Source: Blasia pusilla
Lineage: Eukaryota
Direction of reading: 5' to 3'
Assembly (NCBI GenBank): GCA_050084515.1
Contig: CM114271.1
Span: 19,654,001 to 19,718,000 of the forward strand
DNA length: 64,000 nt
In this document: piece after piece, positions 15,271-58,213 of the stretch
Layout of the letters: each line of letters starts with the position of its first letter
Numbering within the stretch: position 1 is the stretch's first letter
Translations under genes and position numbers: made by a program
The notes under the pieces: model-generated
Told to the model about the DNA's origin: nothing
Database searches by the model: none
What the model saw: only the letters and a program-made list of their open reading frames with translations

Positions 15271-15515
15271 CATTATTCCATGTCATCTAAGTGACGCGTC
15301 AGTCATGGCCTCATGACTACACCCTTGAGTCATATACTAACCTCCACCTAAGCTGACCATCCTAGTTAGCCTAGTCGCCAAAAAAATATGACTTGGATTT
15401 TATGTCTAAAGTAGTTTTCAGTCATTGTTAGTTGTGGTATGTAAAGTATGACTCATATGAGTCTTATAACCTAGTCATAAAACCAAGGATTTCATCTAGT
15501 GGCGGAACTCTGTAC

Positions 15516-34141: not shown

Positions 34142-35908
34142 TGTTGTGCGAATATACATCGCTATTATCGAACACATACTATCCCATGCTAACTCATGGC
34201 ATCCTTACACAGAGGCAAGAAATACCAAAATATCTCCAATAAAGTAAGATCCAATCTCTCTCTACACCATCTTACACCATAGATCTCAAAGGTGTGCACT
34301 CTCTCTCATGTCAAACCAAACCCACTCTCCTAATGAGAGGCTTGGGTTACACTCAGAAGGCAAGGGACCATAGCTCCGCCGCCTTATGCCAAGAGGTTCA
34401 ATAAAGAGAGAATGAGCTCTCAAGCTCTGTCTCTTGGAGGTATACCCCCTTCCCTCTCCCAAGCCCTCTCAACGGTAAACTATGCTTGCAGGTCATCTCC
34501 TTGGCTCTTGATCTGGTGTAGCGGATCAAGAGTCAATTCCCAAAGTGGAAAGTCAACTATCCCTAATATGGAAACTTACCCGAAATAGTAAGTTTCTCTA
34601 TACGGCTCCAAATGAGCCGAAACGAAGGGAAAATCTGTTCTCTCAGGTTTCCCGCGGCCTCAACAGATCATCCTCGACCTCTTGGGCATGTCCTCCACTA
34701 CTCGTGCAGACGCTCTGCTAGATCCCACCGATCTATCTTAACAGTCGTGACAATTTTCGTGCGCATACACATCGCTACACAACATACATTGTTGTCATCG
34801 AAGACACACACAAACACAAACGATCCCATGCTAACTCATTGCATCCATACACAGAGGCGAGAAGTACCAAAATATCTCCAATCGCCCTCCTAGCTGGTGG
34901 TTAGGTCCCTCTAACTCCAAATAGCCCTCTATCCCTACCTACCACGATATACATCTCTAGGACGCTAAGAGCAGAAAGGCCGGGTGCTCATGTGGCCCCA
35001 TCGTTAGTCGCCTTCCTATCATCCACGTCACAGAAAAAGTTGGAATCAAAACCTACCTAGTATCTCCTCTATGTACATCTGGGACACATCCATCGTCCCC
35101 AAGGAACCCTAGTGAGAGGTGGCGTCAGACATGCCATATGCCAACCTCTCGAACATCCATCACAGACTAGCATCGTGGCCGCACCAGGAGCAGAACCACA
35201 CAACATACAATGCAAACCTGTAGGAACTACTGCTAAGCTTGGATCTACTGCACCATCAATATTAGGAAGGTGACATGGCGCACAATTACGCACATGGTCC
35301 TTCGATACCATACCATTGCGTCCCTCCAGCAAGAGAACACCGGATGGCAAAACATCACGCACTCTCAAGATAGTGCGCCCTGTAGTCACATCCAACATCT
35401 TCGGTGTCGTCTGCTGCAAGTAGACATAATCTCCTTGATGAAACTTCCGGGTAGTTGGTCGATAACCACCACCCCGAATAGTTGCATACCTCAACGTATC
35501 CCGATGCTGCGCAATCGCCAAGTTCTCGAACGACATGGGCATCACTCTCCAAAACAACTCAGCCCTCTGAGAACATGCTCACATCCATACATCTGGGTCA
35601 TCAAGATCCAGCACCTGACTAGCATCTTGACAAATGGCTGCAGCTAAATTTGGCTCACGGCCATGAAGTAGCAAGTACGGTGAAAAAGACGCTAAGGATT
35701 CCTGCCCGCTGAATCTATATCCCATCGCCAACCACGGCAATTGGAGGTCCCAATCTCCTAGGTGACCTCTCTGCAAGCCATACTTGCGTAAACCCCTCTT
35801 CACCGTCTGCACAACTCTCTCCGCTAATCCATCTGCCTCGGGATGATCTTGCAAAGTCGTGCGGTGGTCGATCAACGCCTGATCACACAAGACTTGGAAC
35901 TCACCGCG
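34142..35908 (-). mobile_element. 3' part of a DNMT-Gypsy family copy: INT-PHD, 3' UTR, B1 (34755-34882), A2 (34241-34752), B2 (34142-34240)
   Basis: Integrase HPEADGLAERVVQTVK; intact PHD CMLC...CDGC...H..C...WMCPRC (35069-35210); repeat boundaries read directly. Confidence 0.9.
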
Positions 35909-35909
35909 A

Positions 35910-36835
35910 ATGTATGTGGTTTAGGAGACATAGACCTGTGTGGGATGTCGGGAGTTGAGGGTAGGTTGTTGATGAGATGATAGCCTGGTCGATTTTCCGC
36001 ACCACGCCGCGTGTTGCCGCACGTTACACGTCTGGGGGAGGGAGAGTGTAGATCGAGTGTCGCATGTTTGGGATGAGAGATTGAGGGATTACTCACGAGA
36101 TTGAGAGTGATTGTGTGAGAGGGGCACGAGGGCCATCACGGCGTCCTTTTGGGATTTTGAGAGGCGAGGTGGTGAACCCGAGAGTAGCTGTGGAGGGTTT
36201 ACCCGAAGTGGTGCAAGGTTTCGAGGGTCTCAACGTGAGGGACCACCTCAACCTCCTTGTGTGTCATCGTCACACAAGAGGGAGGGTGTAGAGGAGTTTG
36301 TGAGCACATCGCCACACATTGTGAGTGGTCCTACCAGTTGGGCGTACAAGATGGACGACCAGGGTAGAGGACCGCATAGGTTTTCAGGTGCAGTAGGCAC
36401 GATTCAATTTCACGATTTCATGGCAGAGTTTAGGAGTAGGTGCAACTCCTAGCGGGCCAGAAACTCTAGAGAGTTCAACCGTTTACATCATGGAATGGTA
36501 TGTTTTAGCATTTAGAGAGGGCGCCCATGGACGATTTCCATGAGTTCTCCCACAGATATGCCCAGGAGATTGAGGCATGGCGACTCTACTATGACCCACA
36601 CTATGTGTCATGGACGGAGCCGTTCCCAGATGAGGAGGAGGAGTCAAGAGAGGCTACTTCCTCTTCCACTAGTGATGTTTTAGGAGGGGTCACTCACACT
36701 GGAGTTGTTGCACCATCTAGTCGAGTTCGTCCCAGGTTCAACGCCGTGGTTGAGTTCTTCGCTGAGTTGAGGGCCAACTACCAAGGGATACGCACGGAGA
36801 AGTTGCGGAGCATCCACGACTTCCAGAGCCGAACC
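35910..36835 (+). mobile_element. Inverted 5' UTR/gag fragment of the same family
   Basis: GPTSWAYKMDDQGRGPHRFSG and MDDFHEFSHRYAQEIEAWRLYYDP match the gag at 20534-21163. Confidence 0.85.
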
Positions 36836-37031
36836 TAAGCTTCTCCGATTGCAGGGTTTTGGAGTTAGGGTCCATTTTTGGATCCCATCCAAAGATGTCC
36901 ATCTTACATTCACATATTTTCTCTAGCTACGATGACCGTAAATTGAGTTATTCAAATTATTCACAAAAATCCCTTTGGTATAGATTTTTATGGATATGTT
37001 GAAAGATCTACTATATCATACAGATCTACTA

Positions 37032-37183
37032 TATCATGCGCATATATATCGTTGTCACTGAATACACACACAAAGTTAACACAAAAGATACCATACTAAC
37101 TCACGGCATCTAAACATCTTGTACCAAAATATCTCCAATAAATCATGATCTCTCAAATACCTCTCTTAATGTGCATACAACTA

Positions 37184-37276
<93 letters not shown>

Positions 37277-38510
37277 ATGAGAGTATTGGGTTACTCGTAA
37301 CGTAAGGAGGACCATAGCTCTCCCGCCTCATGCCAGGAAGTTCAAAAAAGAGATAATGAGTTCAAAAAGTGCTCCCTCCTTGGTTATACCCCCTATCCTC
37401 TCCCAAGCACTCTCCATGGTAACCTATGCTTGCATGTCACCCTCGACCTCCTCGATTAGGTTTTCCTCCAATATCCTCAAAGACGATCTACTATAAACTC
37501 GTCTATCTATCCTAAAAGACATGACATCTGTCGTGCGCATACACATCGTAGTCAACGAATATGCATACAGACACACAAGATACCATACTAACTCATGACA
37601 TCTAAACATCAAGACGATAAAGTACCAAAAAATCTCCAATCTCACCCTAGCTGGTGGTTAGATCCCTCTAACTCCATATAGTCTTCTATCCCTACCTAAC
37701 TCGACACACATCTCTAGGATGTGACTAAAGGACGCACCATCTTGAGAGTGCAAGATGTCTTTTCATCTGGTATTCTCCTATTGGAGGGACGCGATGGTAT
37801 GGTTTGGAAGAACTATTTGAGTAAATGTGCGTCATGTCATCTCCGTAATATTGATGGTATAGTTGACTTGAGCTTAGTAGTAGTTCTTGCATGCTTACAT
37901 TTCATGTCGTGTGATTTTTCCCGTGATGCAAATGTGATGGATGTTTGAGAGGATGGTACATGGCATGTTTGACGCTACCTCTCATTTCCCTAGATAAACA
38001 TATAGTAGATACTAAGTAGTTCTAGATCTCGGTGTATGTTTCTGACATGGATGACAAGAAAGAGACTAACGATGGAGCCACATGAGTACCAAACCTTTTT
38101 TCTTGTCTGCTACAAGTAGACCTTGTCTTCCTGATGAAACCTTTGAATTCTCGATCAATAACCATCTCCCCAAATAGTCGAATAACCACCTCCTTGAATA
38201 AGTTCTCAAACACCATGAGCATAACCCTCTAGAACACCTCAGCTCTCTAAGAACATGCATATGCTCATATCCATACACCATGATCATTGAGATTCAACAT
38301 CTCACTCGCATTGTGATGAATGATTATAGGTAAATCATGCTCTCAACCATAAAGCAACAAATATGATGAGAAAGATAACAAAGATGCATGCCTACTATAG
38401 CTAGCATCTGTATCCCATCGCCAACCATGGCAAGTGTAGGTCCCAATATCCTATGTGACCTCTTCGTAAGCCATACTTACGTAAACCTCTCTTCACCGTC
38501 TGCACAACTC
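37032..38510. mobile_element. Rearranged 3' end of another copy: B2 37032-37139, A2 37140-37526 (with a CT tract), B1 37529-37640 on minus; inverted PHD/3' UTR piece 37721-38090; integrase piece to 38510
   Basis: Homology to 34142-35908; the B1/A2 junction reads gcgcacGACA-ga-TGTCA on the minus strand. Confidence 0.82.
37186..37273. repeat. (CT)n microsatellite expanded inside the A repeat
   Basis: Read directly. Confidence 0.95.
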
Positions 38511-38780
38511 TATCATGTCTTTTAAGATGGATCAATGAGTTTATAGTAGAGTGCCTTTGAGAGTTTTAGAGGAAAACCTCAAGAGGTCAAGGATGATGTA
38601 TATGCTAAGGCCATGGGAAATCTAAGAGAGCATGTTTTCCCTTCGTTTCGACTCATTTGGAGCTATATAGAGAAAAATACTATTTTGGTAAGCTAACGTT
38701 ATGAGTAGCGCTTTGGGAAGTGGTCCTTGATCCCTTACAATAGATCAAGAGCCAAGGAGGTGACCTATGAACATAGGCTA
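38511..38780 (+). mobile_element. 5' part of an A repeat interrupted by a Copia LTR
   Basis: tatcatgtcttttaagatggatc...gatcaagagccaaggaggtgac matches the A repeat up to 38780. Confidence 0.75.
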
Positions 38781-40106
38781 TGTTGGAAATCAAGAGTTTG
38801 GGATGATGTTCCCCATTCAGTGGCTCATGGAAGTACTCACGGGAGCAAGAGCTGCTTGTTAGGATGTTTTGTAGTACAATTTTTTATACGGAAGAGTGGC
38901 GTGTGGAAGGGTTGCCCAATTGCTTTTGGAGGATTTGAGTATGGGGATGGATTTCTCCACGCTTGTACTCTCAAGATCATCTTGTATCTTTTTTGTGTAG
39001 GTTGCATGATTTCTTAGTTTTTTGGGTGGAAGAAATGAGGGGGGAAGTGCTGCCTGATTTTTCATAGGAGAGGAGGCCATGGGTTGTATGAGAGTTGTCG
39101 CCAGTTTCTAATGGAAGGTCAAATGAGTATCAAGAAGTTGTGCATATTGTCAAAGATAAAACGTACGATTTGGACATCTAAGCACGAAGTTTTGAGTATT
39201 TCCAACTTTCCATGGCTGCCTTAGCCAACTTTTGAAGGAAGGAGCAATTTCAAAAAATTTGGTTAAATTCTTAGTTGAGAGGTAGAAAAAAAAAGTAAAA
39301 ATTGGTTTCATCTTAGTGCATAGGATAAGGGGAAAAAGTGATTTGAGTTTAAAGTCAAGTGGAAACTTTATTTAGTGGATGATGATCCAAGATTTATGGG
39401 ACTTTATGGAGTATTAGCCAAAAGTGAGATAATTTTAGTGAGTTGATGTAACCATCTGTTGTTAGTCATAGTTAAGTTAGAGTCTATGACATGTAGCGCA
39501 TAAGTGGGAAAGAACAAGTCAAAAAGAAAGAAGACAAAGAACATGAGATAAAGATGAGAGTAGGGTCATATGTAGGTGGAAAGTAAGATAAGGATGAGGT
39601 TGGAGGTAGATGTGATAAGATGAGATAGGAATATCAGAGTCCAAATAAGATCCTCTAATAATATGAGAATATGACACGTGGTATAAGGATGGGTAGAACT
39701 ATTTTTTCTTCATTGTTCCTATCTCTAAGTATATAAAGGAAGAGAAGACTTGGGAGAGGCCTTAAGGGGCATTCTACCTTTGAGGAATTCTAGAGCGATC
39801 TTATGAGATTGAGAGTTACAATGGTATCAAAGTAAGGTTGCTCTTTTGACAAGAATGGATTACCCCTCTTGGAAGAATAATCAAGTAATGTATATTATTG
39901 AGAGTTAAATAGGCTTGTTAGAGATTGGTAGTGCCTCTAACAAGCCTATCAAACACTAAAACCTAAACCCTAAACTCTTTACTTAGAGTGTTTGGATGCC
40001 CTATTTATGTTCATATTCAAGAAGATGAGAGGTCTAAGTTAGATCCAAAGGCTAGAAAGTGCATCTTTCTAGGATATTAAAAGGGAGTGAAAGGATATAG
40101 ATTGTG
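38781..40106 (+). mobile_element. Ty1/Copia remnant: 5' LTR 38781-39820, PBS, internally deleted pol fragment
   Basis: TGTTGG...TTACA; PBS tggtatcaaag at 39822; LRVFGC..YVHI...[23 protein letters not shown] at 39980-40106. Confidence 0.8.
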
Positions 40107-43100
40107 CGGGAGGGGGTGCTTGTTATGAACAACTCCCCTACGTTGAGAGATGTAACATGGCGGAGGAGAGCGTAGCCACCATGGATTCTGGGCAAGAGCA
40201 GTCACGATTGGTTGCACCACCTGTGCAGCAATGTGGACTCCGAGATAGATCGATTGTGGCACCACAAGCTCAAGGAGCATACCGGGAGGTTGTGCCACAG
40301 AGACCTGCGCCTTCATATGCGGCTCAGCAGCAGCCGCCTACGATTACTTGTTGCTCATGTGGTGGAGCCCATCATAAGCGCGATTTCACTCGTCAGGGTC
40401 ATGGACGTGTGCCTTAGCATGGAGGAGGAGATGGTGTTGCACCAGGAGATTATCAGTGTGACTATTGTCAGAGGTATGGTCATACACGCGCTAGGGATTT
40501 CAGTTTATATCCTGAGTTACATCCAGATTGAGGGCCAAAGAGGGCACCGAAGCGAGTAGCCGGTCCGGGTGGGCCTAGTGATCTTGCACCAGGTGGTCCC
40601 GTTGGAGGATGAGGAGGTGGAGTTGCCCGCCAGGGTGGTAAAGCTGCCCATGGAGGAGGAAGAGTCCCACCACCTAGACGCGTCAAGGGAGACGCCGGTT
40701 GTGAAGCTGGGATGGCTGCTCAGATAGAGCAGCTACAAGAGCAAATTGCCGTTATAGCATTGAGGTTACCCGATGCCGGATCCGTGGCATCGACATTATA
40801 CGGAGCAACCAGAGATATGGAGGATCCAGGTTTGATGTGCGGGGTTGCCTAGATGGAGGCCGCCATAGCTATGACACGTGGAGCAGCCGCAGAATTGGAT
40901 CCATAGCGAGGGAAGCCAGGAAACATACTAGGCTTCCTCAGTCTTTCACGTTGTTCGAAGCGATGAGGACCCCATGGATGGGTCCTGATCAAAGTTCTTA
41001 GAGAGTTGGTGATGTTGTTGGTGTGCAAGCAGGGAGGGCGATGAGAGAAGTGAGTGTGACGACCCCTATTGCTGATGCTCAGGAGGGGCATGTGTCGAGC
41101 ACGTTGTTGGGGGTGGCCATCATCGTGTACCGCACTCTTTATTTTCTGCTTTCAATGTTATGAAGTTGGGGGGTACGCCCGCCGAGGTTTTTCGGCTGGC
41201 CGCTACACTCTGTGAGCGTGGAGTTGGAGTTCTTGCATCACGTTCATAGGTGATTGCAGAGGAGGTGATGAACCTACCCTTGGAGCGGATGCTCGGGCCG
41301 TCCATATCAGATTCATGGCAGGCTGCGGATGCTAGAATGGCGGAGATGCCCGCTAGACCCGCGATAGAGTGTGCCATGGCTTCTCCTGATGTTGTGTTGC
41401 TGGATAACCAAGCAGAGGTCTTCCAGTTGGTGAGTCCCGCAGGTAGAGCTTTTAGTCTGCACCACGTCTTGTTGGATTCAAGAGCGCAACACCTGATGTT
41501 GGGGAAAGCGTGATTCAGAGGATTGGGCTTGACGAGAGCCGATGTGGAGTGTTTTCCATTCCGGATACAAATATCCTTGGGTGGAGCGAGTACCACACAG
41601 TATATCACCCGACATGAGGTCGTGGTGAGGATTCACTTGGGACATCCTACAGATGAGTCCGCGGTGCGAGCCAAGGTGATAGGGACTGATGTAGAGTCCT
41701 GCGACGTCTTGGTTGGTGGAGCAGTGTTATACCCCATGGGGTTTTCGTGGATTATTGGGAGTAGTCAGTATCCTACAGACTAGGATGGCAGTCAGGTGAT
41801 GGGCGCCTTAGCTCATTACCCGTTTGATTCACAGATGTAGTGATCGAGCGACGGCCAGAAGAGATGGCGACCTTAGCAGCATTTAGCAGTGCTATCACTT
41901 GGCCTAGTGATTTGATTGAGGGACATGTCCATGCAAAGGATACTTCCAATCCTGACATTTCTATGCAAAGGAGTTTCATGGTAGCCGCATCAGTGCGTGG
42001 AGGAGAGATGCCGCTTTGGGGCTCGACTGAGGAGCTTCAACGCTTAGCCATTGAGCATATGCAAACCGCGTGGAACGAGACGTTTGCACCTGAGAGTGAT
42101 GGGTTAGAGGAACCCCAAGTATGCAATAGTGCTGCTATGAACCCTTTGGATACCACCCCGATTGCGTGGTGCATCCCAGAGAAGGGTATTCGGGTGTTGG
42201 ATCTCTTTGGAGGGATCATCACTAGGTTAGCTAATATTTTGGATGCGGGAGTGCGCGTGCAGCAGTTCCTGTATGTGGAGATTGCTAATGTTGCAAGGCG
42301 CGCTTCACTTCACCATGTGGGGCTGTTACGCCTACGTTTTCCCGACTTGTTGTCTGCGTCCGCCATTCAGGGTTACCAAAGTTCCCTACCGAGGGACATT
42401 TCATTGTTAGGGGCCCTAAGTTAACAGGAGGAGAGTGGTACCGGATACACCAGTTCCTTAGGAGTTATAGGAGCTATTTTGCATTTAGTATGCATGATTT
42501 GGGTACGCTAAAGGGTCCAGGAATCCGCATTGAGTTGTCGAGTGACACGCCGATCTTCCGATGATCCTACAGGTACAGTGAGATGGAGAGGGCTCTGATT
42601 CAGAGTAGGAGCCAAGACTTGCTTGGAGTAGAACTAGTGGAGATGTCCATAGAGAGTATGCATCTACCATTGTCATGCCCTCCGAGAAGGATGTGCATGG
42701 CAACTGGACGGATAGGCAGATGTGTGGAGATTACCAACCTATCAATCGGCAGACAAAGTCCGATAGGTATGCCATGCCCACCCGTGAGGAGATCTTTGAT
42801 GCGATTGGGCATGCAAAGGTCTTCACTTCTTTGGATTTGCAAGCCAGATACCATCAACTGCCTATCAGATTGGAGGACAAGCATAAGACAGCATTTTGGG
42901 GCATAGATCCTCACGGGAAGGATTGTTTGTACCAGTGGCGGTTCTTACCATTCAGGTTAAAGAATGCCCCGGCTGAGTTTCAAAGGGTCATGGATAGGAT
43001 CTTTGCAGGTCTGGAGTTTGCTAGGTGTTATATTGATGACATCGTAGCTAGTCTTTAGCGCCACGGTTGAGAAGCATGAGCGACATCTAGAGGAGGTTTT

Positions 43101-46100
43101 TCGATGATTGCAGTTACATGGGCTAAAGCTACATCCAGGCAAGTGCAAGTTCTTCTATGGCCAGATTGAGTACGTGGGTCATATGATATACCCAAGGGGC
43201 CTTGGTGTGCAACATAAAAAGGTAGAGGCTATTTCACGCATTCCACGCCCTACAGATGTGAGTCGAGTTCGTGCATTGATGGGATTAGCGAGCTTCTATC
43301 GACGGTACGTCAAGGCTTCAGTTCGATTGCAAAGCTGCTAACCTTGATGACCAAGAAGGATCAAGAGTGGCACTGGGGGGATGAGCAAGAGAGAGCATTT
43401 CAGATGCTCAAGGACAGATTGATATCCGCGCCCATATTGAGGAGATCGATGAGGGGGTGTCCTTTCCAGTTGCATACCGATTGGAGCATGTTGGGGCTTG
43501 GAGCCGTGCTCACCCAGCATGACGATGATGGTAGAGAGTTTGTGGTGGCTTACGTTAGTTGCTTGAACAATGGTGCACAGGCGAAGTATAGCTCGTATGA
43601 GGGTGAGTGCTTGGCTGCAGTGTGGGCTGTCGCACATTTTAGATGTTATCTATTCGGCAATCCCTTTACCATCATTGCTGATCATCAGCCACTTAAGTGG
43701 TTGATGGAGTCCAACAAGCTTATAGGGAAGCTTGCCAGGTGGGCTCTTTTGTTGCAAGAGTATGTCTTCTAGGTGGTGCATAGACCTGAGACGCTCAACC
43801 AAGATGCAGATGGTTTGAGCCGTAACCCATGCCCGAGTCAACGAGATACGATTGGAGCTCGTTGGCATGGTGAGAGTGATGAGGAGTTGGTGCCAGGATG
43901 GCACGCGTCAGCCTATTTGGGCTTGTTGGCTATGGAGAGCTAGATTGCTGAGACTTCCATGGCGAGGTCTGATGGAGAGTCCTTAGATCTAGAGGCCGGT
44001 GAGGAGGAAACAAGTGGCCGAGATATTCACGATGATGGAGTGGTCTTGGAGTACCTACGTACTGGCAGCATCGCGAGCACAGTGGGTGCTAGAGAGCGGG
44101 ATTGGATCCTACAGCGAGCCATACGGTTCCGATGGGAGGGCACACATGTGTTGCGAGTGTGGGAGGATGGTAGAGTGCATGTAGTGCCTCATCCTTTGTA
44201 GAGAGCACGTTTGGTGCATCATGCCCACAAGGAGTTGGGTCATTTTGGAGTGAAGCACACGTACAGCTTGGTCCAGATTCAGTATTGGTGGCGAGGCATG
44301 CAGACTGACGTTCAGCAATTTGTTGCTGGATGCATAGTGTGTGATCAAGTCCGAGCATTGTTCAATGCTCTCCAAAGTTGCATCCACTTCCAATCATGGG
44401 TTTAGGTTATAGATGGAGTTTGGATTTTGCAAGACCTTTGCCTATGACGGAGCGTGATAGTCGTTATGTGTTGGTGATGGTCGAGCACTTCTCGAAGTGG
44501 ATAGAGTTGGTTGCATTCCCTGACAAAGCAAGTGAGGGAGTAGCGTATGCCTTCCTAGATTGAGTGTTGAGCAATTATGGCACACCAGCTGAGGTGTTGA
44601 CAGACCAGGGTACACAATTTCGAGGGGAGTTTCAGGCCTTGTGTGATTAGGCACTAATCAACCACTGCACTACTTCGCGAGATCATCTTGAGGCGGATGG
44701 ACTAGCAGAGCAAGTTGTGCACACGGTGAAGAAAGGACTACGTACGTATCGCTTGCAGAGAGGTCACCTAGGAGATTGGGACCTTCAATTGCCGTGATTG
44801 GCGATGTGATACAGATTCACCAGGCGGGCATCCTTAGCGTCTTTCTCACCGTACTTGTTACTTTATGGCCGAGAGCCAAATTTACCTATTGCCATTGGTC
44901 AAGATTTTGGTGAGGTGTTGACCCTTGATGACCTTGATGTATGGATGTGAACATGTTCTCACAGGGCTGAGTTGTTTTGGAGAGTGATGCCAATGGCGTT
45001 TGAGAACTTGGCGATTGCGCAACATCGGGATACGTTGAGGTATGCGACTATTCGGGGAGGTGGTTATCGACCCACTATCCGGAGGTTTCATCAGGGAGAC
45101 TATGTTTACTTGCAGCAGACAGCACCCACGATGTTGGATGTAACTATAGGGCGCACCATCTTGAGAGTGCATGAGGTTTTACCATCCGATGTTCTCTTAT
45201 TGGAGGAACACAATGGTATGGTTTGGAAGGACCATGTGCGTAACTATGCGCCATGTAATCTTCCGAACATTGACGGTATAGTTGATCCCAACTTAGCAAT
45301 AGTTCATGTTGGCTTGCGGTGTATGTTGTGTGGTTTCGCCCATAGTGCATCCACTATGCTAGTCTGTGATGCGTGTTCAAGAGGATGGCATATGGCATAT
45401 TTGATGCCACCTCTCACTAGGGTTCCTCAGGGACGATGGATGTGTCCCAGATGTACATAGAGTAGGTAGTTCTACATTCCGACCTGTGTCTATGATATGG
45501 ATGACAGTAAGACGACTAAAGATGGGGCCATATAAGCACCCGGCATTCTTGCTCTTAGCGTCCCAGAGATATATGTCATGGTAGGTAGGGATAGATGGCT
45601 ATCTGGAGTTAGAGGGACCTAACCACCAGCTAGGGGGGCGATTGGAGATATTATGGTACTTCTTGTCTTGTTTTTTGAATGCCATGAGTTAGTATGGGAT
45701 CGTGCGTGCTTGTGTGTGTATTCGGTGACAACAATGTATGTTGTGTAGCGATGTATATACGCATGAAAACTGTCACGTCTTTTAGGATATATCAATGAGA
45801 TCTAGTAGAGCGCCTTTATGAGTAGTGGAGGACAGGCTCAGTAGGTCGATGATGACTTGCTAAGGCCCCGAAAAACTTGAGAGATTAGTTTTCCCTTTCG
45901 TTTCGGCTCATTTGGAGCCATATTGAGGAACTTACTATTTTAGATAAGTACCATTTTGAGTATATGATAGACTTTCTATTTTTGGTAAGTGGCCCTTGAC
46001 CTCTTACATTAGGTCAAGAGCCAAGGAGGTGACTTGGGAGCATAGGTTACCATGGAGAGAGCTTGGGAGAGGGGAGGGGTATACCTCAAGGAGAGAGAGC

Positions 46101-46405
46101 TTGAGAGCTCATTCTCTCTTTGTTGAACCTCTTGGCAAGAGGCGATGGAGCTATGGTCTTGCTTGCCTTGTGTGTGTAACCCAAGCCTCTCATTAGGAGA
46201 GTGGGTTTGGTTTCACATTGAGAGAGACATGTGAGAGTGTTCACATGTGAGAACTATAGTGTTGTGAGAGAGATTGTATCTTATTTGATTGGAGATATTT
46301 TGGTACTTCTTGTCTCGTTGTTTGGATGCCATGAGTTAGCATGGAATCGTGTGTGTGTTCGGTGACAGCAATGTATGTTGTGTAGCAATGTGTATGCGCA
46401 TAAGA
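40107..46405 (+). mobile_element. DNMT-Gypsy copy 2: partial gag-PR-DNMT(N-half)-RT-RH-INT-PHD-B1 (45641-45768)-A2 (45771-46287)-B2 (46288-46405)
   Basis: Protease VLLDSRAQ; IRVLDLFGG; RT CYIDD near 43030; RNase H HTDWS...DHQPL; integrase WSLDFA; PHD 45316-45460. Confidence 0.92.
42187..42414 (+). pseudogene. DNMT motifs I-III; the rest of the domain is deleted
   Basis: IRVLDLFGGIIT...FLYVEIANVARR...LPRDISLLG, followed directly by the pre-RT linker. Confidence 0.88.
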
Positions 46406-46439
46406 AGCATCATCACATGTTTGCAAGTCATGAAGACAA

Positions 46440-48480: not shown

Positions 48481-48481
48481 T

Positions 48482-51400
48482 TTGCCGTAGAAAGAATGTG
48501 AGAATCTCAGGTTTGCTGAAAACAGAGAGCGAAGAGGTGAAGAGTGTTGTCACCAAGTTCTTGGTTGATACACTTCATGTTCATAACCCGGACTTGGCTC
48601 AAGCTTTCCGTATTGGGAAAACGGGCACACAACCTCGTGTCATTCTAGTTAAGTTTGTTGATCAAACTCAACGTGATACTGCCATGGCGAACAAGGCCAT
48701 TCTCAAAGGACGGAGGATATGGTTGGATCGTGATCTCACACCTCTACAAGTCGAAGCTAGGAGAAAGGAGCTTGCAAAGGTCAAAGAGGCTCAAGAAGCA
48801 AGTTTTATTGCTTATCTACGCGATGGTTAAGAAATTGTTACCCAGAGAAAAAGAGAGTGATCAACCTAGCAATCCAAGAAGCTGAGAGTGTTGATGTGGA
48901 ATATACAAGGCCTTTCAACAACAAAGTATGTGAGTGCTCTACCAATTTGGGGGATGGCGAATATCATCAATATTGTGGAGACTTGGGAACATGAGAGCAA
49001 TAATATTGCAGAGGTGGAAGGGTTTACTTTGGTGGGATCGACATGGAATCAAAGAAGGCAACGGGCAGGAAGGGGTTATGGCGGTATTGCTACTTTCATC
49101 AGGTCTCAATTTCTACCTCTCATACATCTAGAAGATCAAGATATCGGGGGCCAATATCATTGGCTACGTCTTGGTTTGGTTGGAGGATCTTATTGTTATT
49201 TGGCAGTTTGTTATTTTGGACCACTCTCCATGTCTATCTACTCAACACGCACTCATAATCGAAGTCAACCGTTCCATCAACTTATTGGGGATGTTCTCAA
49301 ATATCAAAGCAAAGGTGAAGTCTTTCTAGTTGGAGATTTCAATGCTCGCACACGTACTCCTCAATTTACCCAATTCAGTGATTCCTTGATTTCTCCTCTT
49401 CTCGAAGAACATGAGGATGGTTTGTGGTCTAGAATCTCTTCAAATCTTTCTAGAAATCCTTTGACATAGCATTTTTTAACCTTCGGAGCCACTTGTAATT
49501 TGAAAGTTCTTAATGGAACCTCTCATTTTCCCAACTCTCACTCCAATACGTGTTTCTCCTCTACCGGCGCTAGCACCATCGATTATCTTCTATCCTCGCC
49601 CGCTAATAGCTCTCTTATCTCTACATTTGATATTCTAGAACCTCAGCCTGAATCAGATCATGCACCTCTTTTGTTTACTCTCTCACTGTCAAAGCCAACT
49701 CCTCTCTCGACATGTCAATCTATTTAAGCTTCTCCCAAGTTTCGCTTAGATCCTGGTAAAAAAGATCTTTATACGCTATATTTACAAGAACTCTTGACTC
49801 GCATTGTATGGAGCCCAGATCCAAACACGGCAAGTATGCAACTAACCGAATTGCTCAAAAATAGTGCATCTAAGTTCTTTTCGCGCCATAGGGATAGAAG
49901 TGCTAGGAGGCTGCCTTGTAATGGATGGTTTGACTCTGAATGCAAGCAAGCAAGGGCACGATGAGTTGATAAATCTTTGGATATCCCAAGTCGGCTTATT
50001 ATGACGAGCCTTTACAAATACTTGGTGAAATCTAAGAAACGAGCTTTCTTGCGGCGGAAACAAGAGTCCTTGACAAGGGAGCTGCATGAGGATCCCAAAT
50101 CATTTTGGAGACGGTTAGTAGTACGGTCTTCAAAACCTATTCTTGATCCCAAGTCTTTGATATCTTTTGCCGAAAAGCTCTATTTCTTCCCCGATGCTAC
50201 ATCTATGCCACGTTGTGAAGGAATACCTGGCTTATTCTCTGAAGGCGAGGTGATGACTCAACTAAGAAGATTGGCGAATGGTAAATGTGAGGATTTGGAT
50301 GGTCTTTCTATTGAACTTTTCTAGTGGGGAGGAGATTGTATTGGACCGATCCTCACCAAAGTATTGGATGATGCTGCTATCTATGGTTTTCCTCCAACGT
50401 GGTCGCTACGGGAGATTGTTCCTATTCACAAATCAGGAAGGAAGGACTTGATGAAAAACTATCGCACTATCATGGTGGGTAGTGTTTTTGCCAAGTTGTT
50501 TGGGAAATTGGTAGAGTCGAAGTTGAGCACATGGACAGAGACTTTCCAAAAGAGAGCACGGGTCCAATCTGGTTTTCGCCCAACATACAACACCATCGAC
50601 CATATCTTGGCCTTGCGTGTTTTATGGGAGAAATCTAAGGGCAATGGAAAAGCTTTGTTTTGCGGCTTCATCGATTTCAAGAAAGCTTTTGATATTGTAC
50701 CTCGTAAGCTCTTATGGGAAAGGTTGCAAGCCATTGGAGTACCACCAAATCTCCTAGCAACCGTGGCCACGTTATACCATTCCGTTCGGGCCAAGATCAA
50801 AGGTTCAAAAACTCAAGAGATCTTGAGTACCATTGGAGTCATTCAAGGTTGCCCTCTCTCCCCTAAACTTTTTGGAGTTTTCATAGATGATATCGAAAAG
50901 TGGTTGGAGGAATGTGATAGTGAAGGTGTCAAGCTTGGGGACTTTGTCATCAAAGCTCTATTGTATGCAGATGATATCATATTACTAGCACGTGATGGCA
51001 TTAGTTTACAAAAGCACCTCGACACTTTGGCAAGGTTTTGTACCCAGAATCACATGGAGGTTAATATGGAGAAGTCTAAAGTCATTATAGTGGGTACTAG
51101 ATCCAAATTCTCGTTCTTTTACAAAGGTCTACAATTAGAACAAATGAAGAGTTATAAATATCTAGGCATCGATTTCTCTAATGACTATAGTTGGACACTT
51201 TGCATGCAAAAGAGAGTAGAAGCTGGTTACAAAGCTCTATATTCATTTTTAAACTGGTGTAGTAGAGCTCATCTTGTATCTTGGAGTCTTAGGAAATTCT
51301 TATTTAGGAGCTTAGTGTTGCCGGTGGTCTTATATGGGACCCAATTTTGGGGCCCTAGTTGTAAGAAGACAGGTTGGGAGCGCGTGGAGAGAGTGCAAAA

Positions 51401-52208
51401 GATCTTTCTACAAGAAGAATTGGGTGTAAGAAACCAAACTCCGTATGCTATTCTTCTTGCGGAAACAGGTTGTCTTCCTCTAGAAGCTGAAGCTCTTTAC
51501 TTGATCATCACTTACATTGCAAGGGTGAGATCTCTTGATCTTTCTCGCCTCCCTCATCAAGCTTTGCGAGCCACACATTCCATAGGATGGATGGCGGATG
51601 TGGTGACTTGGTCTTCAAAGTGGAATGTGGCAGAACGCGATTGGGACTTGAAACCAATGGCCCTCCGTGAGCATCTACAGAAGCAATTTCTCAATATTAT
51701 TTGGAGGAGCCGGGGCACCAAAATGGAGTTTTATCAACTTCATGTTAATCCTATGCTTGTATATTGTGAACAAGGATACCTACTTGCGGGGATCTCAACA
51801 TTTTAACGTCATATTATCGCACGACATAGAACTGGGTCTCATAGGCTAGGAATTGAGGAAGGACGATGGTTTAATATTGATAGAAGTGAACGAATTTGTA
51901 GGTTATGTGACGGAGAAAATATTGAGGATGAAGAGCATGTGTTTGTTACATGTCCAAGGTATGCAGAGATTAGACTAACTCATAAAATAGATGTGGAGAA
52001 TTTTTATTCTTTACTATAGCTAGTGCCTTATGATTTAGGTTGTTATATTAGGGACGTCATTATTTATCGCTCAAGTGCTCTAGGCTGTAGCTAGGAGAAG
52101 GTCTTAAGGATCTTTTCAGGGTCAGTGAATGAATGACTTGTAATGTGTTTTTCAGCCTTTTGACCCTTTGGGTCCCACCGGCTTGATCTATTTACCATTT
52201 ACCATTTA
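48482..52208 (+). mobile_element. 5'-truncated non-LTR retrotransposon (RTEX-like): ORF1 3' part, ORF2 APE-RT-CCHC, (TTTACCA)n tail
   Basis: ORF1 RRKNVRISGL...AFRIGK...PRVILVKF...DRDLT; endonuclease WNIQG, ETW, GDFNA, IDY, SDH; RT QGCPLSP, LLYADD; RICRLC...EDEEHVFVTC near 51890-51955; tail at 52190-52208; possible TSD CAAT. Confidence 0.9.
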
Positions 52209-52319
52209 CAATACACACACTGAGCTTAAAAGTTGAAAGCCACAATTGGCTCCACAGCAAGGTCTCCACTCCAATGGATAGAAGGTGATTTCTCTAAACC
52301 TGAGGTGGAGTTCACCTCC

Positions 52320-53245
52320 TCCATGATTCTAAGCCCTTCCTCCAATGCAAGTCTTGGATCCACAGGTTGAGGCCTGCGCATTTCAAACTTGGTTCTCTTT
52401 GTGACAGGTAAGTTATTTCTCTTTGCCCATCGCCTCTCATGCTGAACTGTTAGAATATGCTTTCTCCAATTATTGAATGTATTATCTATGCATTTCTTGT
52501 CCTCAAAGCTATCTGCAGTGTCGTACTCTTCAACACACTCCTCAGAGACAAATCTACCCTAAGGTTCCCCATGTTTATCAAAGGTTCGCACAGACCATCA
52601 ATATCTATGGTCTAATTTTAGGTCCTTCATCAACCTATCTAATCCCCTGGTCTTACTTTTCCAGTACGACGTGTAGAAGGGTTTCATCAACGCTAAACCC
52701 CATGTACCCCTCACATCAACAATATCAAGGGATTGATGTAAGCTACCACCTACCAAACCAGAGATTGAATTATCCCCTCCTTCTCCCAAATTGGGATTGG
52801 GCCCACATGGGAATGGAGTAGTGTTAGATCCCCAAGAACTAGCCTCTATCGATAGGTCTACAATATGTATGCAATTAGGAGTCATGTCTTCATTATTTGA
52901 AAGGCTTGCAATGAATGAGTTAGGCTCTGTGGTCAGTTCCCTACTATTTTTCCCTCCCTCCTCCTTTTCATAAAATGTACCCCTCTCAGTCCTACTATCT
53001 ATCAAATAAACTTCCTCTCCCATATCCTCTAGTATATTACAATCTTCCATGTCCTTATCTACAATTCCAAGTATTCTCTTATCCCAAAAACTGAACTCAA
53101 CATCTTTCCACTTCTTCGATTTGTTAAGTTTATCCCTCAAATTCTCTAAGGTTTCCTCATCCTTATAGGCATATATCATTAGTGGTTTTGTTTTGTCAAC
53201 CCCAATCATTGGTAAATAAAGGACCTTAATTTTGTGTGACATTGT
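52320..53245 (-). pseudogene. Upstream coding remnant, probably the N-terminal exons of the P-like transposase gene
   Basis: 223-aa ORF 52598-53269 on the same strand as the transposase, separated from it only by the LINE; no family recognised. Confidence 0.4.
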
Positions 53246-54017
53246 GAGCAATACTGCAGCATAGTACAAGCTATCACATTACATTCACAAAGAGAGAGGT
53301 GAAGGTTAGGACACATCCACTCACATGATGTTAGTGAGAAACATCCATTGCAATCACAAGAATGAATGAAACACATACACAAACTATACAAAATTTACAC
53401 GAGGGGTGATCATGGTCCAAAAAACAAATCCCCATGGGTGTCTGATACATACTCTGTGTCAATCACCTTCTCTGCCAAAAACCTAAATTAATGTCCTCGA
53501 GTGCAAAATTCAATCATTCCCCAAAAAATTAGAGGCCTCGTAACAGCCATTGGAAAACCCCTACTCATCTACAACATGGGCAAAAACCTCCTCTCAACTG
53601 CTGCCTACGATACCGTCTAGCCGAGCAAATTCTTGCAGGTGGCAGCAATCCCTCTTGCATGTAGTAATACTCAAAGCGGAGGCGCACAATACAACCATAG
53701 AAGGTAATAGCCTCGTGGATCATAGCTACAGCTTTCCTCACGTGAGGGGAGTTGTCCTCACTAACCAAAAACCCATTCTGGTCATGGAAAATGTGGACTG
53801 TAATCCAATTTGCCACTCCCAACATCAACCACGCCAAAATGGAGTATGGATCCTCATGCAACAACACAAAATCAGCCATCTTCACATAGAATTGACGGCT
53901 TTGTTCATGAAACCACCAGCATGCAGTCCTCTGCACAAGGTCCCATTCCCAATAGTGCATGGTTGCATAACCACAAATCTTCAATTGACATAGAAGTGGC
54001 AATGCAACTATGCACTC

Positions 54018-57000
54018 TGTCACATCTGAGTAGCCGATAGGGCGAGATCTATCGTGGATAGGGCGTAGGAGCCAGCGGACTATCTTGAGTGTAACTTTTT
54101 CCCACGGTGTCGGATGAGGTTGAGGATAGGTCCATTGTGTCAGGAATGTCGTTTCTGAAAACTTTCATGTTGAGGTCTTTTACAGCCGGGTGACTTGTTG
54201 ACAGTCACCCCTGGTAACCTGTCTTGCGCTTGAGTTACCAAGGGGAGGGCTATTTTTAGGGGAAGAGCCTTTTGGTTCTTCCCAACCCTATATAAGAGAG
54301 GAAGATGGCTTTCCTAAGCCATCTTTCTCATGTTGGGCCGTTAGAGCACCTCCCTTGTACGGGTCTATCATCCCGTTTTAGGTGGTGACACGGGATGATA
54401 AACCACCGTTGGCCATGGCCAATAGGGTGGGGGAGTTGAGGGCAGCCTTACCTACGTTGGTGAGCTTCCCAGCATCCCATGCCTTTCGTCAGGGAGGGCC
54501 AGGCATGATTTGGGATGAGGTGACCGGAGCATTGGAGGAGCCTATAGCAAATGAGCGCGAACGCGCCATGGGGTTCGCTACCGGTACTACGGCGGTGACA
54601 GGGATGACTGAGGCATCCCGGAGACAGGTGTTGGGGCAGGTGATGGACCTCAACTGTCTCACATGGATAGTCAGCCTATGTATGGCTGAGCAGAGACGGA
54701 TGTGAGTGTCCTCCATGCCGTCACGTCCACGAGTTGGACCATTGCCTACAGGGTCTGTACAGGCATTGGCTGGGGGCGAGAGGAGGAGAGATAGGCACCC
54801 ATGGACTTCCTGGGACGTTGTTCGAGCACAGAGTGCAAAGGCGGCTAGAGTAGCACATGTTCATTTTTTGGATGTGGAGCATGGTGTAGGAGGTTAGAGT
54901 GGAGTGGTTGTTGCGGAGGTGGCTAGGGTTGCTACATAGCAACCAAAGCCGAAGGTTGCGTCCTCTCCGAGTGAGGTCACAATGGAGACTTGGGAGCGTG
55001 TGATAGGTCTCAAGTTGATAGGAGGAGAGCGATGGCAAGTTCATAGGTTTTTGAGAGGGCATGTCAGTTGTTTTGCCTTCAGTATGAGAGACTTGGATAC
55101 GCTGAAGGGTCCTGGGATACGGATTGAGTTGGCTAGTGATACGCCGATCTTTCGTCGACCCTACAAGTATTCTGATATGGAGCGAGCCTTGATTCAGAGC
55201 AAGAGTCAGGACTTGTTGGAGGCAGGACTTGTGGAGTTATCACATGGGGAGTATGCATCTGCCACAGTCATGCCGGCGAAGAAGGATATGTATGGCAATT
55301 GGACGGATAGGCGGATGTGTGAAGATTACCGTCCTATCAACCGACAGACGAGGTCAGATCGGTACGCCATGCCTACTCTTGAAGAGATCTTTGATGCGGT
55401 AGGGCATGCAAAGATCTTCAGTACTTCAGATCTCCATGTTGGCTATCATCACCTTCCTATCAGGTTGGAGGACAGGGAGAAGATAGCATTCTGGGGGATA
55501 GATCGGTTCGGGAGAGATTACTTGTATTAGTGGCGGTTCTTACCATTTGGGTTGAAGAACGCGACTATAGAGTTTCAGAGAGTGATGGATAGGACTCTGG
55601 CTGGCTTGGATTTTGTACGATGTTACATAGATGATATTCTTATATTTAGTTCCACGGTTGAGGAGCATGAGCGACACTTGGAGGAGGTGTTTCGGCGATT
55701 GCAGTTACATGGATTGAAGTTACATCCAAGCAAGTGCAGATTCTTTCAGGAGCAGATTGAGTACTTGGGACACACCATATACCCGAGTGGGTTAGGCGTT
55801 CAGCAGACGAAGGTAGAGGCTATTGCACAGATTCCACGCCCTATAGATGTGAGTCGAGTTCGAGCATTTCTTGGACTAGCAAACTTCTATCGACGGTATG
55901 TCAAGGGTTTTAGTGTGATCGCAAAGTCTTTGACCTTGTTGATGAGACTTGATCAGGTTTGGTTGTAGGGAGATGATCAGGAGCGAGCATTTCAGGAGCT
56001 CAAGGTCAGGTTGACGTCCTCACCTATTTTACAGAGACCGGTTATGGGTCCCCATTCCAGTTACATACGGAATGGAGCATGTTGGGTCTAGGAGCAGTGC
56101 TTACTCAGAGGGATGACGAGGAGAGGGAGTTCGTTGTGGCTTACGTGAGCAGATCAAACAACATTGCATAGGCGAAGTACAGCTCCTACGAGGGAGAGTG
56201 CTTGGCTGCAGTGTGGGCCGTGGCACATTTCAGGTGCTATTTATTCGGAAACCCTTTCACACTTATCACTGATCATCAGCCGTTGAGATGGTTGATGGAG
56301 TCCGACAAGCTTACGGGAAAGCTTGCCAGGTGGGCTCTATTACTACAGGAGTATGAGTTTGAGGTGGTTCATAGGCCAAGTCGGCTGAACCAAGATGCGG
56401 ATGGGTTGAGTTGTAACCCATGTCCGAGTCAGAGAGACGACACAGGAGCTCGATGGCACGGAGAGAGTGATGAGGAGATGGTGCCCGGTTGGCATGCATC
56501 TGCCTATCTTTGTTGGTTGACTATGGCAGGTAAGCCACAGGTGATGACTCCAGTGGTGGGTTTGGATGATGAGTCTTTGGATCCGGAGGTTAGTGAGGAG
56601 GCGACAGGTGGTCGTGATATCCATGACGACGTGGAGGTTGTGGAGTTCTTGCGCACTGGCGTCATTGCGAGTATAGTGAGTGCTAGGGAGCGGGATCGGA
56701 TCCTACAAAGAGCCAAGAGGTTCAGGTGAGAGGGGACTCACATTTTGCGGGTATGGGGAGAGGGTAGGATACGAGTGGTACCTCATCCTTCCCAGCGAGC
56801 ACGTGTAGTGCAACATGCCCATGAGGAGTTGGGACATTTCGGAGTAAAGCGTACTTACAGCTTACTCCAGGTTCAGTATTGGTGGCGCGGCATGCATACA
56901 AGGGTACAGCAATTTGTGGCCAAATGTATGGTATGTGATAGAGTGTGAGCATCCTTCAATGCTCCTACTCCGCAGTTACATCCTTTGCCGATTATGGGTT

Positions 57001-58213
57001 TAGGTTATCGGTGGAGTTTAGACTTTGCGGGACCGTGTTGGCCATTTAGATCAAGTGGATAGAGTTAGTCACTTTGGTGCAGCGGCGAGGGCAGGTTATG
57101 CGTTTCTAGATCCTGTGCTTAGTCACTTTGGTGCACCCGGTGTTGGTGTGGTACCGAGTTCATGAGAGAGTTTCAGGCCTTGTGTGATCAAGCACTGATA
57201 GATCACCGCACCACGTCCAGAGATCATCGTGAGGCGGATGGGATGGCAGAGAGAGTGGTACAGACGGTGAAGAGAGGATTGCGTAAGTATGGCTTGCAGT
57301 GGGGACAGTTGAGGGAGTGGGACCTACAGTTGCCATGGTTGGCTATGGGTTATCGCTTTAGTCAACAAGCATCCTTGGTGTCATTTTCACCGTACTTTTT
57401 TCTCTTTGGGAGAGAGCCAGATTTACCTGCAGCGATTCGACGTGACATGGCGGAGGTGTTAGATCTTGATGATCCACATGTGTGGGTACAAGCATGTTCT
57501 CAGAGGACAGAAGTTTTTCGTAGAGTTATGCCTATGGCCTTTGAGAACTTAGCTATTGCCCAGCATAGAGATACATTGAGGTACGCGACCATTCGTGGAG
57601 GAGGTTATCGTCCAGGGATTAGGAGGTTTCATCCAGGAGATTACGTGTATTTACAGCAGGCGGCACCCACGACGCTAGATGTCACTGTAGGGCGACGATC
57701 CTATGTGTGCACAAGGTATTACCGACCGGAGTCCTCATGTTGGAGGGACGGGATGGTATGGTTTGGAAGGATCATGTGCGCAATTGTGCGCCATGTCATC
57801 TTCCGAACGTAGATGGGACGGTGGATCCGAGCTTGGTAGTGGTACCTGCAGGCTTGAGGTGTATGTTGTGCGGATCTGCGAGGGGTGGAGCCACCATGTT
57901 GGTATGTGATGGTTGTTCTCGAGGGTGGCATATGTCATGTCAGACCCCCCCTCTTGATGTGGTTTCCACGGGACAATGGATGTGTCCGAGATATGTATAG
58001 GGTAGTAGGTCATGTCAGAGAGATGTGATATTTTCTATCTGGAGTTGGGGGGGATCCAACTGCCAGCTAGGGGGGCGGTTGTGTGATCTCCATGTATATG
58101 TATGAGTTGATTTTTGTACATGTGTGGATCGACCCGTGTGTGGGGAAGATCGGTGTTGTGTGGTGTAGATGTGACCAGCGATGTATGTTGTGTAGCGATA
58201 TGTATCCACGACA
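54018..58213 (+). mobile_element. DNMT-Gypsy copy 3 (distinct subfamily): 5' terminal segment, large internal deletion, DNMT C-terminal part-RT-RH-INT-PHD-B
   Basis: Starts TGTCA and ends cacGACA; flanks ACTC / GCTC; RT CYIDD near 55624; PHD 57859-57995; the two flanks rejoin in one minus-strand reading frame. Confidence 0.9.
54382..54705 (+). pseudogene. DNMT target-recognition region and motifs IX-X
   Basis: PTLVSFPASHAF...EPIANERERAMGFATGTT...SRRQVLGQVMDLNCL, collinear with 18330-18640. Confidence 0.88.

What the first reader, a model, noticed from the sequence alone, without database searches (positions are those of the whole stretch)
35069..58000. PHD finger fused to the integrase C-terminus, giving a chromatin reader and a DNA-methylation writer in one polyprotein
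Seen: Cys4-His-Cys3 PHD (CMLC-x11-CDGC-x4-H-x2-C-x12-WMCPRC) ends pol in three copies (35069-35210, 45316-45460, 57859-57995) and is decayed in a fourth (about 37890-37990). It sits where chromoviruses have a chromodomain. The residue two before the His is Gly (RGWH), not the cage Trp of H3K4me3-binding ING-type PHDs. Inference: it reads unmethylated H3K4 and steers integration, and perhaps methylation, to gene-poor chromatin, echoing the ADD + MTase pairing of animal DNMT3. This fits the fact that the copies with readable flanks sit inside other transposons.
Basis: partly seen in the sequence, partly recalled or inferred. Interest (0 to 1): 0.75.

Follow-up and report, generated by a model that had tools for sequence, protein, structure and literature searches.

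The report
PHD-tipped, methyltransferase-carrying plant retrotransposon
A very abundant jumping-gene family in what is probably a liverwort genome carries both a histone-binding-type zinc finger on its integrase and its own DNA methyltransferase, but a conserved leaky stop codon separates the two, so they probably do different jobs instead of acting as one reader-writer enzyme.

Summary
The PHD finger is real: it ends the integrase of a Ty3/gypsy family covering about 10% of this genome and is under purifying selection (dN/dS 0.10-0.14). The DNMT3-like domain is real too. 'One polyprotein' needs correcting: an in-frame TAG-CAA-CCA (TMV-type readthrough context) lies between DNMT3 and RT in 24 of 25 copies and in most metagenomic relatives. 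The main product would be Gag-PR-DNMT3; IN-PHD would come only by readthrough, so the ADD analogy is weak. The finger keeps the H3 A1/R2 contacts of KDM5-type PHDs and lacks the K4me3 cage, but also lacks the acids that bind unmethylated K4. Flanks are not richer in repeats than random DNA (36/83 vs 46/120), and their lack of CpG-rich DNA is shared by a Copia control. The ends are split repeats with 4-bp TSDs, best read as a two-LTR circle opened at an internal palindrome. Gypsy+PHD (Chlamydomonas) and gypsy+DNMT3 with such repeats (Klebsormidium) are published; this scan noted the family before in other (moss-like) genomes. Verdict: new variant of a known kind.

The parts
35069..35209 (-). 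PHD finger with all 8 ligands plus stop, end of IN in copy A (5'-truncated)
35210..35944 (-). integrase core (from second Asp) and C-terminal region of copy A
34142..34894 (-). copy A 3' end: poly-G tract 34894-34883, B1, 2-nt spacer, A2 (from 34752), B2 ending 34142
45320..45460 (+). PHD finger of copy C (7 of 8 ligands) plus stop
40271..45319 (+). copy C coding region: gag 3' part, protease, DNMT3 motifs I-III only (about 1.1 kb deleted, including the TAG), RT, RNase H, DDE integrase; many stops and frameshifts
45629..46405 (+). copy C 3' end: poly-G tract 45629-45640, B1 to 45768, 2-nt spacer, A2 45771-46286, B2 to 46405
57860..58000 (+). PHD finger of copy D, a second subfamily about 74% identical in DNA (7 of 8 ligands) plus stop
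54382..57859 (+). copy D: DNMT3 C-terminal part (motif X), RT, RNase H, integrase
54937..54945 (+). in-frame TAG-CAA-CCA between DNMT3 and RT, copy D
18042..18050 (-). in-frame TAG-CAA-CCA between DNMT3 and RT, copy B
18300..19300 (-). full-length but broken DNMT3-like domain of copy B (frameshifts, stops, motif IV reads PW)
15346..22297 (-). copy B: A1 22297-21782, gag, protease, DNMT3, RT, RNase H, rearranged integrase, no PHD
37717..38098 (+). decayed fragment E with PHD remnant at about 37886-37990
14642..15270 (+). solo A+B unit flanked by the 4-bp duplication CATT

Best explanation
A high-copy Ty3/gypsy family of the Klebsormidium KnitGypsy-Dnmt3 kind. SHOWN: one reading frame gag-PR-DNMT3-[TAG CAA CCA]-RT-RH-IN-PHD; PHD conserved as strongly as the integrase core; TGTC..GACA ends with 4-bp TSDs; split repeats A..B-A-B. 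INFERRED: most ribosomes stop at the TAG and make Gag-PR-DNMT3, so the methyltransferase is packed into particles in near-capsid amounts and most likely methylates the element's own cDNA; a minority read through and make RT-RH-IN-PHD; after protease cleavage the PHD stays on the integrase and tethers it to nucleosomes by the free H3 N-terminus (A1, R2). With no aromatic cage and no K4-binding acid, it would bind weakly and discriminate K4 states only mildly, giving at most a bias away from H3K4me3 promoters, not a homing to heterochromatin, and it would not steer the methyltransferase. Integration uses a two-LTR circle (true LTR = B+GC+A) opened at the palindrome GACA-GC-TGTC.
For: TAG in 24 of 25 copies with the anchor, CAACCA after it in 23, same context in subfamily 2; frames continuous on both sides; stop+CAR at the same place in 15 of 16 in-frame metagenomic relatives; Marchantia, Calypogeia and unnamed homologs end 75-185 aa after motif X; CAR YYA is the TMV readthrough signal, about 10% in vivo (PMC2754532 passages). 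PHD dN/dS 0.10-0.14 vs IN core 0.09-0.10. Gap-free match to KDM5B PHD1 keeps equivalents of L325, D328, P347, G349, W351; D at that place in 36 of 36 copies, 97 of 104 and 99 of 102 homologs. No acid in the loop in 36 of 36 copies against two or more in 88 of 104 algal-type homologs. Flank tests. TSD 12 of 20 exact vs 0.3% in control; poly-G tract before B1, 15-nt self-priming complement after A1 in 15 of 18; A2|B2 joint non-modal in 19 of 52 vs 4 of 61, 3 of 32, 0 of 18 at control joints.
Against: No binding, readthrough, methyltransferase or cleavage assay was run. Loss of the acidic residues could mean H3 is no longer the ligand. Nesting in own family is about twice random and flanks are far more repetitive than those of a young Copia family (27 of 57 vs 1 of 22), which could reflect real heterochromatin preference (or age). 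In 99 of 120 long homologs the DNMT lies upstream of IN and not before RT, with no stop between it and the PHD, so coupling may exist there. Eleven relatives have CAA-CCC, one base off the motif. A symmetric circle should also give A-B-A..B copies; none of 3 checked and at most 1 of 30 junction loci fit: unexplained.
Confidence: 0.5

Rival explanations
1. One reading: the PHD reads unmethylated H3K4 and steers both integration and DNA methylation to gene-poor chromatin, as ADD does for animal DNMT3.
For: Closest structures are unmodified-H3 binders; no cage Trp; CpG-rich pieces in 3 of 63 flanks vs 30 of 103 random; own-family nesting 16 of 57 vs 17 of 120; stop-free PR-DNMT-RT-RH-IN-PHD proteins exist elsewhere (P0121, P0004) and chlorophyte forms put DNMT next to IN.
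Against: Conserved TAG and about 1,000 residues between DNMT3 and PHD; K4/T3-binding acids absent; Copia flanks equally lack CpG-rich DNA, 0 of 22; no overall repeat excess; copies spread evenly along C1, chi-square p=0.34.
Confidence: 0.2
2. In this bryophyte-type branch the PHD no longer reads histones; the now basic finger serves integrase assembly, DNA or attachment-site binding, or a non-histone host factor.
For: Zero acidic residues in the loop in 36 of 36 copies, 0-1 in the nearest homologs including Marchantia and Klebsormidium; the linker before the PHD is as conserved as the PHD (dN/dS 0.09-0.11); no clear chromatin signal in flanks.
Against: The R2-binding Asp and the A1 pocket residues are kept almost without exception; alanine at the D308/D292 or E321/E305 positions lowers but does not abolish H3 binding in KDM5 PHD1 (6- to 12-fold).
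Confidence: 0.25
3. The PHD is a functionless relic carried along at the end of pol.
For: All fetched copies are broken; longest open frame 786 aa among 40; within-subfamily dN/dS 0.46-0.73.
Against: Between subfamilies dN/dS 0.10-0.14 at dS about 1.2; PHD present in 27 of 30 loci chosen without regard to it and in at least 103 of 120 long homologs.
Confidence: 0.05

Closest known systems
KnitGypsy-Dnmt3 of Klebsormidium nitens (de Mendoza et al. 2018, PMC5890265; passages, sections 9 and 11 read, 3 supplementary files searched, figures not seen)
   Same: Gypsy with a non-rearranged Dnmt3-like domain in pol; Fig. 4c legend says the repeats are arranged as in DIRS. K. nitens IN-PHD proteins (KFL_015960010, KFL_005000010) fall in the same integrase clade as this family.
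   Different: The text and held supplements never mention a PHD (0 hits); the passages I read give no readthrough stop, TSD or circle model; described as a lineage-specific algal acquisition with few copies, whereas relatives occur in liverworts, Sphagnum and chlorophytes and here fill about 10% of the genome.
Gypsy-7a_cRei of Chlamydomonas reinhardtii (bioRxiv 10.1101/2022.06.16.496473; passages read)
   Same: Gypsy Gag-Pol with a PHD finger; the authors propose it may reduce harmful insertions and saw intergenic insertions 2.6 times above chance.
   Different: No methyltransferase or split repeats in the passages read; position of its PHD relative to integrase not established from the text.
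EpiLTRs of Cymbomonas and Euglena (bioRxiv 10.64898/2026.05.21.726589; passages read)
   Same: LTR elements that combine a chromatin reader with DNA methyltransferases.
   Different: Reader is a chromodomain, DNMT is sister to DNMT4, and an adenine methyltransferase is present; the authors call them distinct from streptophyte Gypsy-DNMT3.
KDM5A/KDM5B PHD1, BAZ2A/B, ATXR5, UHRF1 PHD fingers (PMC4225485 passages and section 11; bioRxiv 10.1101/715474 abstract and section 13)
   Same: Gap-free alignment to KDM5B PHD1; model superposes at 0.5-1.5 A on most of these; A1 pocket and first R2-binding Asp kept.
   Different: Equivalents of D308, E321 and the second R2 Asp are non-acidic; stand-alone finger at the end of an integrase.
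Chromoviruses (Neumann et al. 2019, PMC6317226; passages read)
   Same: Reader domain at the integrase C-terminus; self-priming as in Tcn1/Tf1-type elements.
   Different: No chromodomain; REXdb text has no PHD or methyltransferase (0 hits); its LTR-FINDER filter needs two full LTRs, which this family lacks.

Membership tests
PHD finger (PF00628) | Cys4-His-Cys3 ligands, score above cut-off, PHD fold | tested here: met
   8 of 8 ligands in one window copy, 7 of 8 in two
H3K4me3-reading PHD (ING/BPTF/TAF3) | cage Trp two residues before the His (position recalled; cage residues named) | tested here: not met
   Gly in 36 of 36 copies; Trp in 0 of 104 and 0 of 102 homolog PHDs
H3K4me0-reading PHD (KDM5 PHD1, BHC80, AIRE) | H3A1 pocket (L325, P347, G349, W351) and R2-binding D328 | tested here: met
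   gap-free alignment to 2mny with numbering
H3K4me0-reading PHD (KDM5 PHD1, BHC80, AIRE) | Asp/Glu that binds the unmethylated K4 amine (D308; E321/E305) | tested here: not met
   Ala/Thr and Ala at these places; no acid in the loop in 36 of 36 copies
H3K4me0-reading PHD (KDM5 PHD1, BHC80, AIRE) | measured preference for K4me0 over K4me3 | not testable with these tools
DNMT3-type C5 methyltransferase | motifs I-X in non-rearranged order, catalytic Pro-Cys, best solved match DNMT3 | tested here: met
   PC in 27 of 29 motif IV matches; DNMT3A top hit E 7e-9; PF00145 43.9 bits
DNMT3-type C5 methyltransferase | methyltransferase activity | not testable with these tools
   no assay
ADD + MTase pairing of animal DNMT3 (recalled) | reader next to the catalytic domain in one mature protein | tested here: not met
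   in-frame TAG plus RT, RH, IN in between
Ty3/gypsy LTR retrotransposon | PR-RT-RH-IN order, DDE integrase, TG..CA ends, TSD | tested here: met
Ty3/gypsy LTR retrotransposon | complete direct repeat at both ends | tested here: not met
   A at the left, B-A-B at the right in 31 of 40 copies
Chromovirus | chromodomain after integrase | tested here: not met
   PHD, no chromodomain family in Pfam scans
KnitGypsy-Dnmt3 kind | Dnmt3 domain in a gypsy pol frame and DIRS-like repeat layout | tested here: met
KnitGypsy-Dnmt3 kind | common descent with the published K. nitens element | tested here: inconclusive
   K. nitens IN-PHD fragments share a clade (support 0.88) but I could not tie them to the published element
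DIRS/Ngaro tyrosine-recombinase elements | tyrosine recombinase and no TSD (recalled) | tested here: not met
   DDE integrase and 4-bp TSD; no recombinase family in the ORFs scanned (not every frame was scanned)

The most novel reading that the evidence does not exclude
A green-lineage retrotransposon group that works like a restriction-modification pair on its own cDNA: abundant particle-borne DNMT3 methylates the CAG/CTG cytosines of the palindrome GACAGCTGTC in one LTR copy of the two-LTR circle and so protects it, the integrase opens the other copy, and the PHD docks the complex on H3 tails. This would explain why the methyltransferase is kept, why it is made in excess through a leaky stop, and why only one of two identical palindromes is used.
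Probability: 0.1. Interest if true: 0.9.

Novelty: new variant of a known kind. Interest (0 to 1): 0.55.

Why it matters
It extends a curiosity known from one alga to a lineage spanning chlorophytes, Klebsormidium, liverworts and Sphagnum, and shows it can become a tenth of a plant genome. The leaky stop gives the first structural hint at what a retrotransposon DNMT3 is for (made with Gag, so cDNA methylation in the particle), a question left open in PMC5890265. Marchantia polymorpha carries close relatives (IN-PHD 81% identical), so PHD-guided targeting and circle integration become testable against existing chromatin maps. The split ends also mean that standard LTR finders miss the family, and several Marchantia 'hypothetical' gene models are pieces of it.

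Tried and rejected
Junction pattern with a 3-nt spacer: 2 matches; the spacer is 2 nt, 461 matches. Permuted A-B-A..B copies: not found in 3 copies checked upstream; 1 of 30 junction loci is unreadable on that point. tRNA-type primer site after A1: sequence does not start with TGG; self-priming fits instead. Repeat enrichment in flanks: none overall; the test uses a small library (240 kb random plus the window), pieces from one locus are not independent, and power is low. CpG-rich depletion as PHD evidence: rejected, Copia control shows the same (22 of 29 fetched flanks usable). Complex prediction of PHD with H3 tail: tool not available, no result. The look-up of sequencing runs: no RNA holder listed. 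Regex counts of catalytic motifs in homologs (65 of 159 PC) are too strict to use. The split-repeat check for subfamily 2 failed (anchors did not match). Host lineage was not tested with host genes. Paper searches with no description of PHD+DNMT3 gypsy, of the readthrough stop, or of circle opening in such elements in their listings; the library lacks most subscription papers, theses and Repbase reports, and figure 4c of PMC5890265 and all bioRxiv supplements were not seen and may show the PHD.
Full report
OBSERVATION. Spacing and the Gly two before the His are as stated, but only the copy at 35075-35209 keeps all eight ligands. A model of the finger (pLDDT 87-92 over the domain) superposes on DPF3, BAZ2A/B, ATXR5, UHRF1 and MOZ PHDs. 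The methyltransferase is DNMT3-like (top solved match DNMT3A, E 7e-9; PF00145 43.9 bits). No window copy holds both a whole DNMT and a PHD, so the claim had to be tested on other copies.

THE FAMILY. The host genome is 390 Mb in 26 contigs; the IN-PHD piece gave 13,529 first-look candidates, and the family covers 10.5% of 240 kb drawn at random (15 of 40 loci). Of the 40 best-scoring copies after the window's own, 31 show the three DNMT probes, RT, RNase H, integrase and PHD in that order. All 40 are broken; the longest open frame is 786 aa. Repeat identity within copies is 93.1-99.8%, median 97.7% (18 copies). In 30 loci picked by an end motif and not by the PHD, 27 have an in-frame PHD and 15 keep all ligands. 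Nearest named relatives are liverwort (Calypogeia DNMT 70%, Marchantia IN-PHD 81%), then Sphagnum and Klebsormidium; with eight large contigs and one of 14 Mb I infer a liverwort host, untested with host genes. One RNA run of a related or identical organism laid 7,028 reads over all 30 bins of a copy, about ten to one on the strand expected for sense RNA in a stranded library; most reads were 85-95% alike, so this shows family expression in that organism only.

ONE POLYPROTEIN? Frames run on from gag through DNMT3 and from RT through PHD with no shared stop or shift. Between them, 116 codons after motif X, 24 of the 25 copies in which the anchors were found have an in-frame TAG, followed by CAACCA in 23; 17 of 42 sequences lacked an anchor. 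The second subfamily has the same TAGCAACCA at 54937. In metagenomic contigs, 23 of 49 loci examined had both anchors, 16 in frame, and 15 of these have a stop followed by CAA or CAG at that place (4 exact CAR-YYA, 11 CAA-CCC); in 5 it is the only stop. Many homologs end just after the DNMT or begin just before RT. CAR YYA is the TMV readthrough signal, about 10% efficient in vivo (PMC2754532, passages). I infer an abundant Gag-PR-DNMT3 and a rarer readthrough product carrying RT-RH-IN-PHD, then cut by the protease (established for gypsy polyproteins, PMC6317226 passage). Against generalising: P0121 and P0004 are stop-free PR-DNMT-RT-RH-IN-PHD proteins, and 99 of 120 long homologs, including Monoraphidium, Hariotina and Pleodorina proteins, carry the DNMT upstream of integrase and not before RT (mostly RT-RH-DNMT-IN-PHD), 7 before RT and 14 not at all. 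An integrase tree of 163 sequences puts this family, Calypogeia, Klebsormidium and all 8 DNMT-before-RT proteins in one clade (support 0.88, midpoint root, weak inner nodes) apart from all 101 DNMT-before-IN proteins.

WHAT THE FINGER CAN READ. It aligns without gaps to KDM5B PHD1. Using that paper's numbering (PMC4225485, passages and section 11), the A1 pocket (L325, P347, G349, W351) and the R2-binding D328 are kept. D308, which binds the unmethylated K4 amine, and E321 are not acidic here; the loop has no acid in 36 of 36 readable copies (of 40), against two or more in 88 of 104 homolog PHDs. In KDM5A/B such losses cost 6- to 12-fold and lessen the gap between K4 states. No PHD of 242 examined has the cage Trp. 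So 'not a K4me3 reader' is well founded, 'binds the H3 N-terminus' is likely, and 'selects K4me0' is open. The finger mattered to the active element: dN/dS between subfamilies is 0.10 (copies chosen by PHD score) and 0.14 (copies chosen by the end motif) against 0.09-0.10 for the integrase core, at dS 1.2-1.6, near saturation.

WHERE COPIES LAND. 36 of 83 flanks of 500 nt match a repeat, against 46 of 120 random pieces (p=0.56). CpG-rich, GC-rich pieces are rare in flanks (3 of 63 against 30 of 103), but also in flanks of a young Copia family (0 of 22), so selection or a general bias explains it as well. The 86 end motifs on C1 are spread evenly (p=0.34). TSD sequences show no obvious motif. 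These tests are small and neither show nor exclude targeting.

THE ENDS. Copies start TGTCACG and end CACGACA with a 4-bp TSD (12 of 20 exact, 6 more with one mismatch; control 0.3%). The layout is A..coding..B-A-B in 31 of 40, A..B in 7. The B-A joint is the palindrome GACA-GC-TGTC, also present in three metagenomic relatives. This fits a reverse-transcribed LTR of B+GC+A, end-joining to a two-LTR circle and opening at the palindrome; retroviral integrases can cut palindromes (PMC2884000, passage). Why only one palindrome is used is unexplained.

COMPARISON AND NOVELTY. Gypsy with Dnmt3 and DIRS-like repeats is published for Klebsormidium (PMC5890265, sections 9 and 11; PHD not in text or 3 held supplements; figure unseen). 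Gypsy with a PHD and a targeting proposal is published for Chlamydomonas, and reader-plus-methyltransferase EpiLTRs for Cymbomonas and Euglena. My searches (listings only) showed no account of the PHD+DNMT3 form in bryophytes or chlorophytes, of the leaky stop, or of the acid loss. This scan has noted the family in other genomes; those notes are unchecked and not counted as support.

VERDICT. Observation partly confirmed, interpretation partly supported. Real integrase-borne PHD in a DNMT3-carrying gypsy family; likely an H3-tail tether, uncoupled from the methyltransferase by a leaky stop. New variant of a known kind; interest 0.55.

Noticed in passing
window 48870-51803 (+): LINE (endonuclease + RT). 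Its 40 best genome matches cluster in narrow intervals (C1 29.5-32.1 Mb, C2 27.3-27.9, C6 19.2-20.8, C8 13.7-15.4), like a centromeric LINE; the gypsy end motif has no match on C1 between 29.6 and 33.2 Mb.
   Followed up: partly
P0102, P0130: Chlorophyte forms add a PTM/DIR17-like Tudor hit (below cut-off) after the PHD: possibly a second reader.
   Followed up: no
P0151-P0159, P0170, P0184, P0191: Marchantia polymorpha gene models (e.g. Mp_4g09160, Mp_8g17980, Mp_6g11220, Mp_7g09570) are gag-PR-DNMT3 or IN-PHD pieces of this element.
   Followed up: partly
B1|A2 joints in L011-L050: The GC spacer reads GC 10, AC 8, GT 5, other 3 of 26, the decay expected from methylated CAG/CTG.
   Followed up: partly
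L015:8569-9230 (element orientation): B1-GC-A runs on into the 5' leader, a head-to-tail tandem form.
   Followed up: no
L181-L209: Young Copia family (98.5-99.3% identical, about 680-nt LTR) whose flanks are nearly all non-repetitive and CpG-poor.
   Followed up: partly
window 33288-33898 and 22529-23139: Repeated 610-nt element (82% alike, inverted) ending in GCGCACGACA like this family's end; perhaps a related or non-autonomous family.
   Followed up: no
window 1-2220 and 2758-2924: Tandem arrays of about 351 nt and 42 nt.
   Followed up: no
window 5300-8600 (+): CACTA-type transposase remnant (PF02992).
   Followed up: no
window 15346-16142 and 35991-36828: Inverted rearrangements inside copies of the family.
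   Followed up: no
window 58519-58950: Five degenerate purine-rich units of about 63-74 nt.
   Followed up: no
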